Assembly: GCF_009914755.1 (NCBI RefSeq)
Contig: NC_060930.1
DNA from: the human T2T-CHM13v2.0 reference genome, Homo sapiens
Length of the DNA: 64,000 nt
Reading direction: 5' to 3' (one strand)
Of the stretch, positions 376 to 16,719 are shown one piece after another. The notes below the pieces were generated by a model. The model was not told the DNA's origin. It searched no databases and worked only from the letters and a program-made list of their open reading frames with translations. The translations under genes were made by a program, and so were the position numbers. The stretch's first letter is position 1. Every line of letters begins with the position of its first letter.

Positions 376-480
376 AAAATGGAATCATCAAGACAGATAA
401 AGTATTTGAAGTGATGCTGGCTACAGACCGCTCCCACTATGCAAAATGTAACCCATACATGGATTCTCCACAATCAATAG
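376..480 (+). CDS. PCMT1: PCMT1 exon 2 (105 nt)
   Basis: tttcag|AA AAT GGA...TCA ATA G|gtaagc; translates (K)[34 protein letters not shown](G), matching the recalled PIMT N-terminal region. Confidence 0.98.
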
Positions 481-602
481 GTAAGCTTTAGATTTCTGAA
501 AATATCATAGTTTTCATCATTTACTTTATGATTTTTGGAAGTAGAAAAAGCCTGGGACACAGATATTTATCTATTATTACCTTCTTAATTTGAATTTTAT
601 GA

Positions 603-1032
<430 letters not shown>

Positions 1033-1950
1033 TAAAAAAAAACTTTTAATGAAAACTTACAGTATTAGCCGAGTGCTGAGTTTTCTTTAGGGGCCTTAGT
1101 GTTGACTAAAGATTAGTTTTCAGGTTAGGATTAATTTTTTAAATCAATATTTAAATAAGTGTGCTTAAGTTATTAATGACTTCTCTGCTTTATTTGCCCT
1201 GCTTTTTTGGCTTGTGTTTGTTTTTAGAAAGTCCTGTATTTAACTCCTTCTCCTGAAGCAGGTTTTGCTGAACTGCTGAGCCTTGGCAGTGGGCGCCTTT
1301 GAGGCTTAGAAGTGCCTCAGGATTCTGTCAGTCGGCTGCCATGCTATCTTCTTTTGACGCACTATAACAGTCAGCAGAGAAGATCCTGGGGAGCTTCTGA
1401 ACCCCGAAGGCACCTGCTACCACCGCTCAGTGAAACTTGCTTCAGAGGCAGAAAGAAGCAGGTAAATAAGTTTTGAGAAAGCAACACCACAAGAAAAGAA
1501 ACTAAAAGTTAAGAACCACGAAAAGATTGTGTGAATTAACATTAGATGATAAGATAAAGAATAAAATGAAGTATTTTATTGGTCTTTTAAGCTACTTTTT
1601 CAGTTATTCTAGTTTTTTTTTAAGTTGACAGAAATATGAAGCAATTTAATTTTGCACAGACTTTGTATACCTATTACATATGAAAACTTATTTTTAAAAA
1701 ACAATCTGAAGTAAAAACAAGCCAAAAATATATCAACTCTCAACTTACTGAAATTTTTCTTTTCTTAGCTGACTCTACAGGAGAAGAAATTTTTAGCTGC
1801 CGTACTTTAGAGGGACTGTTTTACTAGATGAGCACGTTACCCTTTGGCATGATTATATTTTCTAATTTTAACTGCTGGGTGACAGTACTCTAATAGAAGT
1901 AAGTTTTATTTTCTTGAGATCATAAAAACTAAAAAAGAATTATTGTGAAA

Positions 1951-2249
<299 letters not shown>

Positions 2250-2351
2250 GAATTATTGTGAAAAATAACGTATGGATGGTAGAAAAGAAATTATGTGAAA
2301 TAGTATATTTTTACAGCTGACTGTATCAGTAGTTCTCTTCTTCTTTTGCAG

Positions 2352-2383
2352 GTTTCCAAGCAACAATCAGTGCTCCACACATG
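2352..2383 (+). CDS. PCMT1: PCMT1 exon 3 (32 nt)
   Basis: ttttgcag|GT TTC CAA GCA ACA ATC AGT GCT CCA CAC ATG|gtaagt = (G)FQATISAPHM; phase matches exon 2. Confidence 0.97.
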
Positions 2384-12632: not shown

Positions 12633-14654
12633 TAGCCAGCCTGGTCTCGAACTCTTGACCTCGTGATCTGCCCACCTCAGCCTCCCAAAGTGCTGGGATA
12701 AGAGGCATAAGCCACCGCACCCGTCCCACATGTTATTAATTATAAAGAAAAAAATATGCCTTGAAAGTAGAGTGATCTATTGGTGACCACATTTACTGAG
12801 TGGTTGAGGTTGACATGTCCGGTGGTGTGGTGGTCCAATATTATATACGTCTTAATGTGATGCTCTTAGGGAGTTGCATAGCAAGACTTGCGTGTGTTCT
12901 TGCTAGACGTCTTTGATCTGAATCTAACCCTGAGGAAGCAGAGACATCTAGAATGTGGTGCATTATGTGTGGGACAACTGGACAGGACTCTTTTTTTTTC
13001 TCCCCCCTGAGACAGGGTCTTGCTCTGTTGCCCAGGCTGGAGTGCAAAGATCATAGCTCACTATAACCTCAAGCTCTTCAGCTCCAGTGATCTTCCTGCC
13101 TCTGCCTCCCAAGGAGCTGGGACTATAGGCATGTGCCATGACCCACACTCAGATAATTTTTAACTTTTTTGTAGACATACGGTCTCAACTGTGTTGTCCA
13201 GGCTTATTTCAAACTCCTGGTCTCAAGTTATCCTTCCACTTTGGCCTTTCAAAGCACTCGGATTATAGGTATAAGTCACCATGCCTTGCCAGGACTCCTT
13301 AAATGAGTCAGTGTCCTGAAGAACAGAGCAAAGTGGTAGGTGGAGGGAGATAATTGGGGGAACATTCTAGATTGGCAAATGTAATGCATGAACCTTGAAT
13401 ATATTGGGGGAAAAAACAGCCATTTAACACATATTTGTGTGTTACCCCTAAAAGGGTTCTGTGGAACATTAAGGACTTTCTGGTTTGAAAGTTTGAAATG
13501 TCTTGGATTATGTGAGGCTGTATCTATTCAAGGCCTTCTCTCCATATATAAGTTGGGGGAAAAGATAGCTTTAACTTTTTAAAAATTCTTTTTTTAAGCT
13601 CCCAAGTGCTTGGAAACCTTAGCTTTAAATAAAAACACAACTTCTTATTATGGAAAATTATGGAAGAGTTCCAGTACCATATATACAAATAAAATAGTAT
13701 AATGAACCTATAAATCACCCAGCTTTAATAATGACCAACAATTTACTAATCTTGTTTTATTTAACTCTCTCTTTTTTTTTTTTTGAGGCAGAGTCATGCT
13801 CTGTGGCCCAGGCTGGAATGTAGTAGCGCAATCTCAGCTCACTGCGGCCTGCTGGGCTCAAATCATCCTCTCACCTCAGCCTCTCGAGTAGCTGGGACTA
13901 CAGGTGTGCACCACCACATCCACCTCATTTTTGTATTTTTGTAGAGATGGGGTATCGCTGTGTTGCCCAGGCTGGTCTTGAACTCCTGAACTTAAGCAAT
14001 CCACCCACCTCGGCCTCCCAAAGACTGGGATTACAGGCTATGAACCACTGCTCCTAGTGTAACTCTCTCTTTTGCTGAAGTATTTTAAAGCAAATCCCAA
14101 ACATACATAATATTATTTCATCCCTGGATACGTTATTATAAATCTCAATGACTTTAAACATAAACTACAATGTCATTATCATACCTAACAATGTTTCTTA
14201 ATATCTTATGTCTACTCCACGTTCAAAGTTTGCCAGGTGCTTAAAAATTTTTATAGTTAATTCGCTTAAATCAGTATCCACACAGAGTCTATACATTGCA
14301 TATTTTTGGTCTTGTTTCAGTTTTTTAAAGTATCTTTTAATTTTTAAAGAAAGACCCCTTTCTTTTTTTAAATGCCATTTGTTTATTGACTAAAGTAGTT
14401 CATTTGTTATATAGAATTTCCCATATTCTGAATTTGGTTAATTGTTTCCTAGTGGTGGTTGACTTATTCTTAAAACTTTTTTTTTCAGGAACACTTCCTA
14501 ATGGTCCTTCCTGTTGCATCATATCAGGAGGTCCATAACGTCTGGTCATCATCCACTTTTAGTGATTGGAATAAGTAGTTGTTAATTTTTTTTTAATTGT
14601 TCCATGGAATAGGGCATTTTCGTTCTATCTTTCTCTTTGGCATTGGCTGTTTTC

Positions 14655-16719
14655 TTTTTTTTTTTTTTTAATTTAAATGTGGTATGTTTATTCAGTTCTT
14701 TTTTTTTATTTTTATTTTTTTTTATTGATTATTCTTGGGTGTTTCTCGCAGAGGGGGATTTGGCAGGGTCATAGGACAATAGTGGAGGGAAGGTCAGCAG
14801 ATAAACAAGTGAACAAAGGTCTCTGGTTTTCCTAGGCAGAGGACCCTGAGGCCTTCCGCAGTGTTTGTGTCCCTGGGTACTTGAGATTAGGGAGTGGTGA
14901 TGACTCTTAACGAGCACGCTGCCTTCAAGCATCTGTTTAACAAAGCACATCTTGCACCGCCCTTAATCCATTTAACCCTGAGTGGACACAGCACTTGTTT
15001 CAGAGAGCACAGGGTTGGGGGTAAGGTCACAGATCAACAGGATCCCAAGGCAGAAGAATTTTTCTTAGTACAGAACAAAATGAAAAGTCTCCCATGTCTA
15101 CTTCTTTCTACACAGACACGGCAACCATCCGATTTCTCAATCTCTTCCCCACCTTTCCCCCCTTTCTATTCCACAAAGCCGCCATTGTCATCCTGGCCCG
15201 TTCTCAATGAGCTGTTGGGCACACCTCCCAGACGGGGTGGTGGCCGGGCAGAGGGGCTCCTCACTTCCCAGTAGGGGCGGCCGGGCAGAGGCGCCCCTCA
15301 CCTCCCGGACGGGGCGGCTGGCCGGGCGGGGGGCTGACCCCCCCACCTCCCTCCCGGACGGGGTGGCTAGCCGGGCAGAGGAGCTCCTCCTTCCCAGTAG
15401 GGGCGGCCAGGAAGAGGCGCCCCTCACCTCCCGGACGGGGCGGCTGGCCGGGTGGGGGGCTGACCCCCCCCACCTCCCTCCCAGACGGGGCGGCTGGCCG
15501 GGCGGGGGTGCTGACCCCCCCACCTCCCTCCCGGACGGGACGGGGCGGCTGGCCGGGCGGGTGTGCTGACCCCCCCACCTCCCTCCCGGACGGGACGGGG
15601 CGGCTGGCCGGGCGGGGGTGCTGACCCCCCCCACCTCCCTCCCGGACGGGGCGGCTGGCCGGGCGGGGGGCTGACCCCCCCACCTCCCTCCCGGACGGGG
15701 CGGCTGGCCGGGCGGGGAGCTGACCCCCCCACCTCCCTCCCGGACGGGGCGGCTGGCCGGGCGGGGGGCTGACCCCCCCACCTCCCTCCCGGACGGGGCG
15801 GCTGGCCGGGCGGGGGCTGACCCCCCACCTCCCTCCTGGACGGGGTGGCTGCCGGGCGGAGACGCTCCTCACTTCCCAGACGGGGTGGCTGCCAGGCGGA
15901 GGGGCTCCTCACTTCTCAGACGGGGCGGCTGCCGGGCGGAGGGGCTCCTCACTTCTCAGATGGGGCGGCCGGGCAGAGACGCTCCTCACCTCCCAGACGG
16001 GGTCGCGGCCGGGCAGAGACGCTCCTTACCTCCCAGACGGGGTCGCGGCTGGGCAGAGGCGCTCCTCACATCCCAGACGGGGCGGCGGGGCAGAGGCGCT
16101 CCCCACATCTCAGACGATGGGCGGCTGAGCAGAGACGCTCATCACTTCCTAGATGGGATGGTGGCCGGAAAGAGGCGCTCCTCACTTCCTAGATGGGATG
16201 GCGGCTGGGCAGAGACGCTCCTCATATCCCAGACGGGGTGGCGGCCGGGCAGAGGCTGCAATCTCGGCACTTTGGGAGGCCAAGGCAGGCGGCTGGGAGG
16301 TAGAGGTTGTAGCTAGCCGAGATCACGCCACTGCACTCCAGCCTGGGCACCATTGAGCACTGAGTGAACGAGACTCTGTCTGCAATCCTGGCACCTCGGG
16401 AGGCCGAGGCTGGTGGATCACTCCGGTTAGGAGCTGGAGACCAGCCCGGCCAACACAGCGAAACCCCGTCTCCACCAAAAAAATACGAAAACCAGTCAGG
16501 TGTGGTGGCGCGCGCCTGCAATCGCAGGCACTCGGCAGGCTGAGGCAGGAGAATCAGGCAGGGAGATTGCAGTGAGTTGAGATGGCAGCAGTACAGTCCA
16601 GCTTCGGCTCGGCATCAGAGGGAGACCGTGGAAAGAGAGGGAGACCGTGGGGAGAGGGAGACCGTGGGGAGAGGGAGACCGTGGGGAGAGGGAGAGGGAG
16701 AGGGAGCGGGAGCGGGAGC
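14655..16719 (-). mobile_element. Full-length SVA retrotransposon (probably SVA_D), antisense in PCMT1 intron 3, with 3' transduction
   Basis: On the minus strand: (CCCTCT)n/CCCGCT hexamers (about 16620-16718), Alu-like domain (about 16250-16620), GC-rich VNTR (about 15230-16250), SINE-R (about 14721-15230), poly(A). TSD TGGCTGTTTTC at 14644-14654 and 16720-16730. Subfamily is from recall. Confidence 0.96.

What the first reader, a model, noticed from the sequence alone, without database searches (positions are those of the whole stretch)
1253..1445. Long hairpin of about 78 bp in PCMT1 intron 2, biased toward pairing on the sense RNA
Seen: 1253-1338 aligns to the reverse complement of 1368-1445 with one 8-nt bulge (CTGAACTG) and a 29-nt loop. 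My manual count of the 78 columns is 55 Watson-Crick, 12 G-U, 6 A-C and 5 other mismatches. That gives 67/78 paired on the PCMT1 sense RNA versus 61/78 on the antisense. The block is GC-richer than its AT-rich flanks and I cannot match it to Alu, L1 or any MITE I recognise. Established: A opposite C in long dsRNA is a preferred ADAR substrate. Inference: this is a selected regulatory RNA structure (editing or splicing switch, or small-RNA precursor) rather than a decayed palindrome.
Basis: partly seen in the sequence, partly recalled or inferred. Interest (0 to 1): 0.9.

Follow-up and report, generated by a model that had tools for sequence, protein, structure and literature searches.

The report
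Conserved ADAR-edited hairpin in PCMT1 intron
The long hairpin in PCMT1 intron 2 is real and carries a published A-to-I RNA editing site shared by human and mouse, so it is a known, evolutionarily kept RNA structure whose purpose is still unexplained.

Summary
The sense RNA folds far better than shuffles (z -5.6; z -5.9 for 1195-1505). Weaker pairing extends the stem to 1202-1499.

It is not a decayed repeat. Using a circRNA that spans exons 2-3 as an anchor, the PCMT1 intronic site hg19 chr6:150093334 maps to window A1412. This site is one of the 59 mammalian-conserved editing sites of Pinto et al. 2014. Their predicted partner base, 150093216, maps to C1294. My fold puts these two bases opposite each other as a 1x1 A:C mismatch. 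Published levels are 22% in human and 31% in mouse; the sequence is marked conserved in dog and opossum.

No other copy exists in the genome by a 31-nt arm consensus, and there is no Rfam hit. The 12:6 strand bias is not significant on its own (p=0.24).

The editing site is already known. New here, and only inferred: the stem encloses both splice-site-like ends of a latent, stop-containing 234-nt exon (1228-1461).

The parts
1253..1338 (+). Left (5') arm of the GC-richer core stem, with an 8-nt bulge at about 1268-1275.
1339..1367 (+). Apical loop region (29 nt, with small local helices in the MFE).
1368..1445 (+). Right (3') arm of the core stem.
1412..1412 (+). Edited adenosine, equal to hg19 chr6:150093334. 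It sits in a 1x1 A:C mismatch flanked by G1293-C1413 and G1295-C1411.
   Evidence: Mapping. It is unpaired in the MFE while both neighbouring pairs have probability 1.0. Published editing is 22.2% in human and 31% in mouse.
1294..1294 (+). Cytosine opposite the edited A, equal to hg19 chr6:150093216, the 'predicted complementary nucleotide' in Table S11 of Pinto et al. Their complementary region 150093207-150093233 maps to window 1285-1311.
   Evidence: for the table; for my independent pairing.
1202..1252 (+). Outer, AT-rich left extension of the stem. It contains a pyrimidine tract (1203-1225) and AG (1226-1227) that look like a 3' splice site.
1446..1499 (+). Outer right extension of the stem. 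It contains a 5'-splice-site-like CAG|GTAAAT (1459-1467) and a purine-rich run that pairs with the pyrimidine tract.
1228..1461 (+). Latent exon (hypothesis only), 234 nt. Read in the frame of exon 2 it gives a TGA at 1254-1256 and three further stops.
   Evidence: translation; splice-site likeness. No human RefSeq transcript uses it (hub annotation).

Best explanation
Window 1202-1499 (core 1253-1445) is a unique imperfect inverted repeat kept across mammals. On the PCMT1 pre-mRNA it folds into a hairpin of about 110 base pairs, interrupted by mismatches every 1-14 bp. It is a site-selective ADAR substrate: A1412, opposite C1294, is deaminated to inosine. Editing is published for human brain and mouse brain, so this part is already catalogued. 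The resulting I:C pair closes the mismatch and fuses a 6-bp and a 7-bp helix into 14 bp; a G stand-in for inosine gives about -5 kcal/mol. The steps shown are the fold (computed), the editing and conservation (published), and the base-for-base mapping (done here). The purpose is inferred. I think selection acts on the structure rather than on the inosine. Its most likely role, at about 30%, is in pre-mRNA processing. The stem pairs a pyrimidine tract plus AG (1203-1227) with the purine-rich run (1471-1501) just downstream of a strong 5'-splice-site-like motif (CAG|GTAAAT at 1459-1467), and pairs 1233-1236 with 1459-1462 of that motif. This would hold a latent stop-containing 234-nt exon out of the mRNA. 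Editing or helicases could then tune how tightly it is held. Which ADAR acts is not known. The brain-only signal in one 16-tissue data set would fit ADAR2, but that is a guess.
For: **Fold.** z is -5.64 and -5.88.

**Mapping.** hsa_circ_0006936, hg19 chr6:150092297-150094305, spans 2008 nt. That equals window 376-2383, from exon 2 start to exon 3 end. So window position = hg19 - 150091922, and 150093334 maps to 1412, which is an A.

**Independent check.** Table S11 of Pinto et al. gives partner base 150093216, which maps to 1294. That is exactly the C my alignment and my fold place opposite 1412.

**Published editing.**
- Human 22.2% and mouse 31%.
- Mouse 10:7368312 T>C called in 10 of 15 strains, with 4 unedited and 1 without reads, at depths of 1-16.
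- It is the only listed site in the mouse hairpin region; the other two Pcmt1 sites lie 3.4 kb away.
- Opossum 1 of 3 reads.
- Human Body Map: brain 0.33, and 0 in all 8 other tissues with reads.

**Conservation.** Table S8 marks mouse, dog and opossum as conserved. Table S3 gives a platypus and a cow reference A.

**No family.** A 31-nt degenerate consensus of both arms, with up to 3 mismatches, hits only the two arms in 3.1 Gb; the control pattern hits 0.

**Latent exon.**
- The 5' site matches the consensus at 8 of 9 positions. It is one of 10 such plus-strand sites in 64 kb and scores above all 6 annotated PCMT1 5' sites in the window.
- The 3' site has 17 of 22 pyrimidines, against 14-19 for the 7 annotated sites.
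- Positions 1203-1225 are almost all paired.
- There is an in-frame TGA at 1254-1256.
- The mouse VCF annotates the edited site as 3' UTR of two NMD transcripts, one of which is still intronic at sites 3.4 kb downstream.
Against: - I could not see any non-human sequence, so conservation of the left arm and compensatory changes are untested. The conservation evidence is taken from one paper's tables, and I did not read the criterion behind Table S8.
- Read depths behind the editing calls are low: 3 opossum reads, 5 platypus reads with 0 edited, no cow reads, no rat alignment.
- The G-U over A-C excess is not significant.
- For the splicing idea, none of the 9 human RefSeq transcripts has an exon in this intron (hub annotation).
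- In the MFE the GUAAAU of the 5' site lies in an internal loop, so it is not itself sequestered.
- The mouse NMD annotation fits plain intron retention equally well.
- Two searches found no paper describing such an exon. 'PCMT1' with 'poison exon' returned 1 paper, which does not describe one for PCMT1 in the passage I saw. 'PCMT1' with 'nonsense-mediated' and 'cassette exon' returned 0.
- The edited A is in a CAC context. From recalled knowledge, this is not the preferred ADAR neighbourhood.
Confidence: 0.8

Rival explanations
1. It is a neutral relic: a decayed palindromic MITE or an old local inverted duplication that happens to fold. Any editing is ADAR overflow with no selection.
For: Arm-to-arm identity of about 77% (98 of 128 columns) is what a palindrome would show after about 14% divergence per arm. 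The G-U/A-C ratio does not differ from 1:1 (p = 0.24). The flanks are AT-rich, as is common around DNA-transposon relics.
Against: The 81 nt around the site passed the human-mouse BLAST filter of Pinto et al. (a '70 identity' threshold). The site is marked conserved in dog and opossum, which neutral intron sequence would not be at that depth (established knowledge). Editing occurs at the same base at similar levels in human and mouse. No other copy exists: the 31-nt arm consensus with up to 3 mismatches finds 2 hits, both of them the arms themselves. By my simulation that search would catch 43% of copies at 14% divergence and 1.5% at 30%. I see no target-site duplication at either candidate boundary in the sequence.
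Confidence: 0.04
2. It is an exapted copy of a very old, low-copy, mammal-wide DNA transposon or other Dfam family that a repeat library may already name. The hairpin came from the element's palindrome and was later kept for its RNA structure. This concerns origin and is compatible with the best explanation.
For: The long near-palindromic architecture with AT-rich ends is typical of MITEs (recalled knowledge). My search loses power for families over 30% diverged: 1.5% detection per copy at 30%, 0.4% at 35%. The genome DNA search could not even find the other arm at 77% identity, so it says nothing.
Against: There are no other copies by pattern; the single chr13 hit shows no similarity beyond 27 nt. 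There is no significant similarity to Alu: the 14-bit model hit is not supported by direct alignment, where 108-300 of 300 shuffles score as well. No TSD was seen.
Confidence: 0.25
3. It is a precursor of small RNAs: a pri-miRNA, or a long-hairpin endo-siRNA source processed by Drosha or Dicer.
For: It is a stable hairpin on the sense strand. Two of the conserved sites in the same published set lie in miRNAs.
Against: No Rfam family matches. The best hits are two bacterial families at E = 0.94 and 9.6, far below their gathering scores. The stem is 78-110 bp, much longer than a pri-miRNA stem (recalled: about 35 bp). No miRNA gene is annotated here (hub table). No small-RNA data could be examined.
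Confidence: 0.05
4. The conserved thing is a DNA-level element, such as an enhancer or a palindromic protein-binding site. The RNA hairpin and its editing are side effects of the palindrome being transcribed.
For: Deep non-coding conservation alone does not say whether DNA or RNA is selected.
Against: RefSeq functional elements list no enhancer here; the nearest is 14643-15143 (hub table). A palindrome of about 300 bp kept with G-U-tolerant mismatches, plus editing of the same base in two species, is what an RNA duplex under selection predicts. Neither point is decisive.
Confidence: 0.07

Closest known systems
The 59-site mammalian conserved editing set of Pinto, Cohen and Levanon 2014 (Genome Biol 15:R5), entry 45, PCMT1 intron
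   Same: It is this very site. hg19 chr6:150093334 maps to window 1412, and their predicted complementary base maps to window 1294.
   Different: In what I read, the paper lists only the site and a 27-nt complementary region. It does not describe the full stem of about 110 bp. It notes that 13 of 17 conserved intronic sites lie in genes that also have recoding sites. PCMT1 appears once in the main text, as an intron row, so it belongs to the unexplained remainder.
Exon-complementary-sequence hairpins of GRIA2, GRIK2, FLNA and BLCAP
   Same: They are conserved, imperfect intramolecular duplexes that direct ADAR to particular adenosines.
   Different: Those pair an exon with an intron and recode a protein. 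This one is wholly intronic in the annotated mRNA and changes no codon.
Inverted Alu pairs (IRAlu) as promiscuous ADAR substrates
   Same: They are intronic inverted repeats edited by ADAR. One such pair flanks this hairpin.
   Different: This hairpin is not Alu. It is single-copy and far older than primates. The mouse set lists only one site in it.
ADARB1 (ADAR2) self-editing intronic site, also in the conserved set (seen as an 'ADARB1 intron' row; mechanism recalled)
   Same: It is an intronic, conserved editing event tied to splicing.
   Different: There, editing creates an AG 3' splice site (recalled). Here A1412 sits in CAC, so inosine creates no AG or GU.
Splice sites regulated by local RNA stems, for example the MAPT exon 10 5' splice-site hairpin (recalled, not tested)
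   Same: This is the proposed working principle: a helix limits access to splice signals of an alternative exon.
   Different: Here the stem is about ten times longer, would hold both ends of the exon, and use of the exon in human is unproven.
MITE-derived miRNA hairpins such as MADE1/mir-548 (recalled)
   Same: They share a palindromic DNA origin that gives an RNA hairpin.
   Different: No family copies, no Rfam match, and the stem is too long.

Membership tests
Conserved mammalian A-to-I editing site in a dsRNA substrate | The adenosine lies in a stable intramolecular duplex on the transcribed strand. | tested here: met
   Sense fold z is -5.64 and -5.88. A1412 is in a 1x1 mismatch between two pairs of probability 1.0.
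Conserved mammalian A-to-I editing site in a dsRNA substrate | A-to-G RNA-DNA differences occur at the orthologous base in two or more species. | not testable with these tools
   Taken from print: human 22.2% and mouse 31%; mouse 10 of 15 strains; opossum 1 of 3 reads and platypus 0 of 5. I only mapped the coordinates to the window.
Conserved mammalian A-to-I editing site in a dsRNA substrate | The editing depends on ADAR1 or ADAR2. | not tested
   I found no knockout data for this site. Searches returned only Pinto et al. 2014 for this site.
Palindromic MITE / DNA-transposon relic | Multiple dispersed copies exist in the genome. | tested here: not met
   The 31-nt arm consensus with up to 3 mismatches finds only the two arms, and the control finds 0. 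The gapped exact pattern finds the two arms plus one chance hit. Power is low above 30% divergence.
Palindromic MITE / DNA-transposon relic | Terminal inverted repeats are flanked by a target-site duplication. | tested here: inconclusive
   Pairing runs to the ends. I see no direct repeat at 1194-1201/1500-1507 or at 1245-1252/1446-1453 in the sequence. The boundaries are uncertain.
Palindromic MITE / DNA-transposon relic | A match to a Dfam/Repbase consensus. | not testable with these tools
   No repeat library is on hand. Alu was excluded by direct alignment.
pri-miRNA | A match to a known miRNA family, or a stem of about three helical turns with small-RNA reads. | tested here: not met
   No Rfam match. 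The stem is 78-110 bp. Small-RNA reads are not testable here.
Poison (NMD) cassette exon | Usable 3' and 5' splice sites bound the exon. | tested here: met
   By crude consensus counts only: the 5' site matches 8 of 9 positions and the 3' site has 17 of 22 pyrimidines plus AG, as good as the annotated PCMT1 exons.
Poison (NMD) cassette exon | Inclusion gives a premature stop. | tested here: met
   TGA at 1254-1256 in the frame of exon 2; four in-frame stops in all.
Poison (NMD) cassette exon | Junction reads or transcripts show inclusion, and inclusion rises when NMD is blocked. | not testable with these tools
   Only indirect evidence exists: the mouse VCF labels the site as 3' UTR of two NMD transcripts. 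No human RefSeq exon is present (hub table).

The most novel reading that the evidence does not exclude
The hairpin is a structure-gated poison exon. A 234-nt, stop-containing exon (1228-1461) has its pyrimidine tract and AG, and the sequence around its strong 5' splice site, locked into the foot of one long conserved stem. PCMT1 output, above all in brain, would then be set by how firmly the stem closes. ADAR editing of A1412 (I:C closure, about -5 kcal/mol) and RNA helicases would act as the tuners. This would give a function to one of the few conserved intronic editing sites that lie outside any recoding gene.
Probability: 0.2. Interest if true: 0.7.

Novelty: already known. Interest (0 to 1): 0.45.

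Why it matters
Only about 59 A-to-I sites were found shared between human and mouse, and nearly all sit in or beside recoded exons of neuronal genes. The PCMT1 site is one of four conserved intronic sites in genes with no recoding event (13 of 17 intronic sites are in recoding genes), so its conservation has no stated reason. PCMT1 repairs damaged aspartyl residues and matters for brain function (one search lists 'memory, synaptic function, seizures'). Tying the site to a stem of about 110 bp that encloses splice-site-like signals turns an unexplained table entry into a testable idea about how PCMT1 expression is controlled. For the scan, it shows that a first-stage reading of strand-biased pairing can point to a true conserved ADAR substrate, even though the bias statistic alone was not significant.

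Tried and rejected
- **Whole-genome DNA search** with 1228-1461 and with the left arm found only the query itself. The tool did not report the other arm at 77% identity even at E up to 10, so I do not count these as evidence of uniqueness.
- **Gapped exact pattern** gave one extra hit on contig 13. Alignment shows only 27 nt of similarity, so it is chance.
- **Profile searches of the genome** were not accepted. The model could be run only on the window. Apart from the two arms, 62 of the 64 listed hits had E of 0.002 or worse. The best, at 14 bits, lay on an Alu tail and failed a shuffle test.
- **Rfam** at a permissive threshold gave nothing relevant.
- **Earlier findings of this scan** were not open.
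- **Literature.** Searching the coordinate numbers directly gave no paper on the site; all 15 of the 74 hits that I saw listed matched only the mouse number, in unrelated papers. 'circPCMT1' gave 2 papers. The CRISPR-iPAS paper's PCMT1 intronic poly(A) site is not located in the passages I saw, and I did not link it to this intron.
- **Fagnani et al. 2007** list a CNS-regulated Pcmt1 exon.
- **Transcription-coupled mutation bias** as a neutral cause of the G-U excess: G+T content is 0.52 in the element and 0.51-0.61 in the flanks. This is too weak to argue either way.

Full report
**1.

The sequence is given. Positions 1253-1338 pair with 1368-1445, with one 8-nt bulge and a 29-nt loop.

The fold results are:

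| Stretch and strand | MFE (kcal/mol) | z-score | Shuffles as good |
|---|---|---|---|
| 1228-1461, sense | -101.7 (shuffle mean -74.2, sd 4.9) | -5.64 | 0 of 200 |
| 1228-1461, antisense | -91.9 | -3.67 | 1 of 200 |
| 1195-1505, sense | -121.7 | -5.88 | 0 of 100 |

A gapped local alignment shows that the inverted repeat runs on to 1202-1499. It has 128 aligned columns: 98 WC, 12 G-U, 6 A-C and 12 other.

The AT-rich outer part is less certain than the core. It scores 33 against a shuffle mean of 19.4 (sd 3.6), with 6 of 1000 shuffles as good. The best of 42 other pieces of the same intron scores 29.

Twelve G-U against six A-C gives a two-sided binomial p of 0.24.

**2. It is not a recognisable repeat**

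- **Whole-genome DNA searches.** They returned only the query. They also failed to return the other arm at 77% identity, so they carry no weight.
- **Pattern searches.** These are more telling. A 31-place degenerate consensus of both arms, with up to 3 mismatches, hits the two arms and nothing else in 3.1 Gb. The reversed control hits nothing.
- **Power of that pattern search.** By simulation it would recover 43% of copies at 14% divergence, which is the per-arm divergence implied by the arm-to-arm identity. It would recover 5% at 25% and 1.5% at 30%. A family of even a few copies of matching age, or of several hundred much older copies, should have shown.
- **Gapped exact pattern.** It found one further place, on contig 13, but only 27 nt match there.
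- **Profile of the arms.** Run over the 64-kb window, it found only the arms plus a 14-bit hit on an Alu tail. Direct alignment to that Alu is no better than shuffles, with 108-300 of 300 scoring as well.
- **Rfam.** It has nothing: the best E-value is 0.94, to a bacterial family.
- **What I could not do.** No Dfam-type library was available. Profile searches of the genome were not accepted.

**3. What it is: a published, conserved ADAR target**

A full-text search for PCMT1 with editing terms led to Pinto, Cohen and Levanon 2014 (PMC4053846). I read passages, sections 7, 8, 18 and 28, and parts of supplementary file 1.

Their table of 59 sites shared by human and mouse has entry 45: chr6:150093334, plus strand, PCMT1, intron (hg19).

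*Placing the site in the window.* I needed an anchor. Two circRNA papers give hsa_circ_0006936 / hsa_circRNA_104220 as hg19 chr6:150092297-150094305, PCMT1 (table passages only). With a BED-style start, which is a recalled convention, this spans 2008 nt. That is exactly the distance from the start of exon 2 (window 376) to the end of exon 3 (window 2383). Hence window position = hg19 - 150091922.

- The edited base maps to window 1412.
- Table S11 of the same paper gives the 'predicted complementary nucleotide' as chr6:150093216, within region 150093206-150093233. That maps to window 1294.
- C1294 is exactly the base that my alignment and my fold place opposite A1412.

This agreement between two independent routes makes the mapping secure.

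*Published facts on the site:*

- Editing is 22.2% in the human set and 31% in the mouse set (Table S1).
- In the Human Body Map, brain shows 0.33. The eight other tissues with reads show 0, and seven tissues have no reads (Table S4).
- Table S3 (header, row) gives: rat, no aligned base; cow, A with no reads; opossum, A with 3 reads and 0.33 edited; platypus, A with 5 reads and none edited.
- Table S8 marks the sequence as conserved in mouse, dog and opossum, but not in chicken or zebrafish. I did not read the criterion for that table.
- The human-mouse step used 81-nt queries, BLAST and a '70 identity' threshold, with the edited bases aligned.
- In the mouse source data (Danecek et al. 2012, PMC3446300, supplement passages only), 10:7368312 T>C has a mean editing of 31. 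It is called in 10 of 15 strains, with 4 unedited and 1 without reads, at depths of 1-16.
- The only other Pcmt1 sites in that file are 7364882 and 7364892, 3.4 kb away. The mouse hairpin therefore shows one selected site rather than the many sites usual for Alu-type duplexes.

*Context from the paper.* It reports that 13 of the 17 conserved intronic sites lie in genes that also have recoding sites, mostly as exon-complementary sequences. PCMT1 has no recoding site in the list (one mention only). It therefore belongs to the small unexplained remainder.

*Other literature.* Searches for this site under other terms found no other paper in the library that treats it.

**4. Anatomy around the edited base**

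In the 1195-1505 fold, A1412 and C1294 form a 1x1 internal loop between G1293-C1413 and G1295-C1411, and both pairs have probability 1.0.

Replacing A1412 by G, as a stand-in for inosine, pairs it with C1294 and lowers the energy from -121.7 to -127.1 kcal/mol. This fuses helices of 6 and 7 bp into 14 bp.

The stem has 110 pairs in the MFE: 47 A-U, 45 G-C and 18 G-U. No uninterrupted stack is longer than 14 bp.

The edited A sits in a CAC context, so inosine creates neither an AG nor a GU.

**5. How it may work**

The fold, the editing and the conservation are shown. The purpose is inferred.

The foot of the stem carries two strong splicing-like signals.

- **Left side.** A pyrimidine tract with AG sits at 1203-1227, with 17 of 22 pyrimidines. 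The seven annotated PCMT1 3' sites in the window have 14-19.
- **Right side.** CAG|GTAAAT sits at 1459-1467 and matches the 5' consensus at 8 of 9 positions. It is one of only 10 such plus-strand sites in 64 kb. The six annotated PCMT1 5' sites score 5-7.

Together these would bound an exon at 1228-1461, 234 nt long. Read in the frame of exon 2 it gives ...SPQSIESPVFNSFS and then a stop at 1254-1256, with three more stops after it. The normal junction gives ...SPQSIGFQATISAPHM.

In the fold:

- The pyrimidine tract 1203-1225 is almost wholly paired with 1477-1501.
- Positions 1228-1230 pair with 1471-1473.
- Positions 1233-1236 pair with 1459-1462.
- The GUAAAU itself lies in an internal loop.

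The mouse VCF labels the edited site as 3' UTR of two NMD-class Ensembl transcripts. One of them is still intronic at the sites 3.4 kb downstream. This fits inclusion of such an exon, but it fits intron retention equally well.

A preprint lists PCMT1 among genes with pan-tissue regulated splicing and highly conserved intronic sequence. It gives no detail for PCMT1 in the one passage I saw.

Against the idea:

- No human RefSeq transcript has an exon here (hub table).
- No paper in the library describes one.

I put this splice-gating reading at about 20-30%. The plainer statement, that this is a conserved intronic dsRNA and a site-selective ADAR substrate, I put at about 0.8-0.9.

**6. Rivals**

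- **Neutral decayed palindrome.** Close to excluded, by conservation to marsupials, same-base editing in two species and the absence of copies.
- **Exapted copy of a very old low-copy repeat.** This origin stays open at about 25%, because I had no repeat library and my search loses power above 30% divergence.
- **Small-RNA precursor.** No support (stem too long).
- **DNA-level element.** Cannot be excluded without covariation data.

**7. Comparison and novelty**

The site and a short complementary region have been in print since 2014, so the feature is already known.

- The base-for-base link between that table entry and the full stem of about 110 bp.
- The demonstration that the stem is single-copy in the human genome.
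- The observation that the stem encloses a latent stop-containing exon.

The decisive tests could not be run here: a multi-species alignment with covariation, a Dfam search, junction reads under NMD block, and stem-mutant minigenes.

Supplements I could not see may bear on the exon question. In particular, Fagnani et al. 2007 list a CNS-regulated Pcmt1 exon, but paper reading closed.

Noticed in passing
window 745-1041 (antisense) and 1940-2250 (sense): Two Alu elements in opposite orientation lie in the same intron and are 77-81% complementary over blocks of 46-173 nt (sequences). The conserved hairpin sits in the loop of about 900-1150 nt between them, so in primates the old hairpin is nested inside a much younger potential dsRNA.
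   Followed up: partly
window 376-480 and 2352-2383: These two exons form the published blood circRNA hsa_circ_0006936 (hg19 chr6:150092297-150094305). The hairpin intron is the circle's internal intron. A second circle, 'circPCMT1', shares the same end but starts about 5.5 kb upstream, outside the window.
   Followed up: partly
window 1228-1461: A latent 234-nt exon is bounded by a 17/22 pyrimidine tract plus AG and by CAG|GTAAAT (8/9 to consensus, better than all six annotated PCMT1 5' sites in the window). It carries four in-frame stops. Its ends pair with each other in the stem.
   Followed up: partly
window 2352-2383: Exon 3 of PCMT1 is only 32 nt long, which is not a multiple of three. 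Its 3' splice site lies about 90 nt downstream of the A-rich tail of the sense Alu.
   Followed up: no
mouse mm9 chr10:7364882 and 7364892 (not in the window): Two further Pcmt1 intronic editing sites appear in the mouse 15-strain set, at mean levels of 67 and 5, 3.4 kb downstream of the conserved site in gene direction. I did not check whether they have a human counterpart.
   Followed up: no
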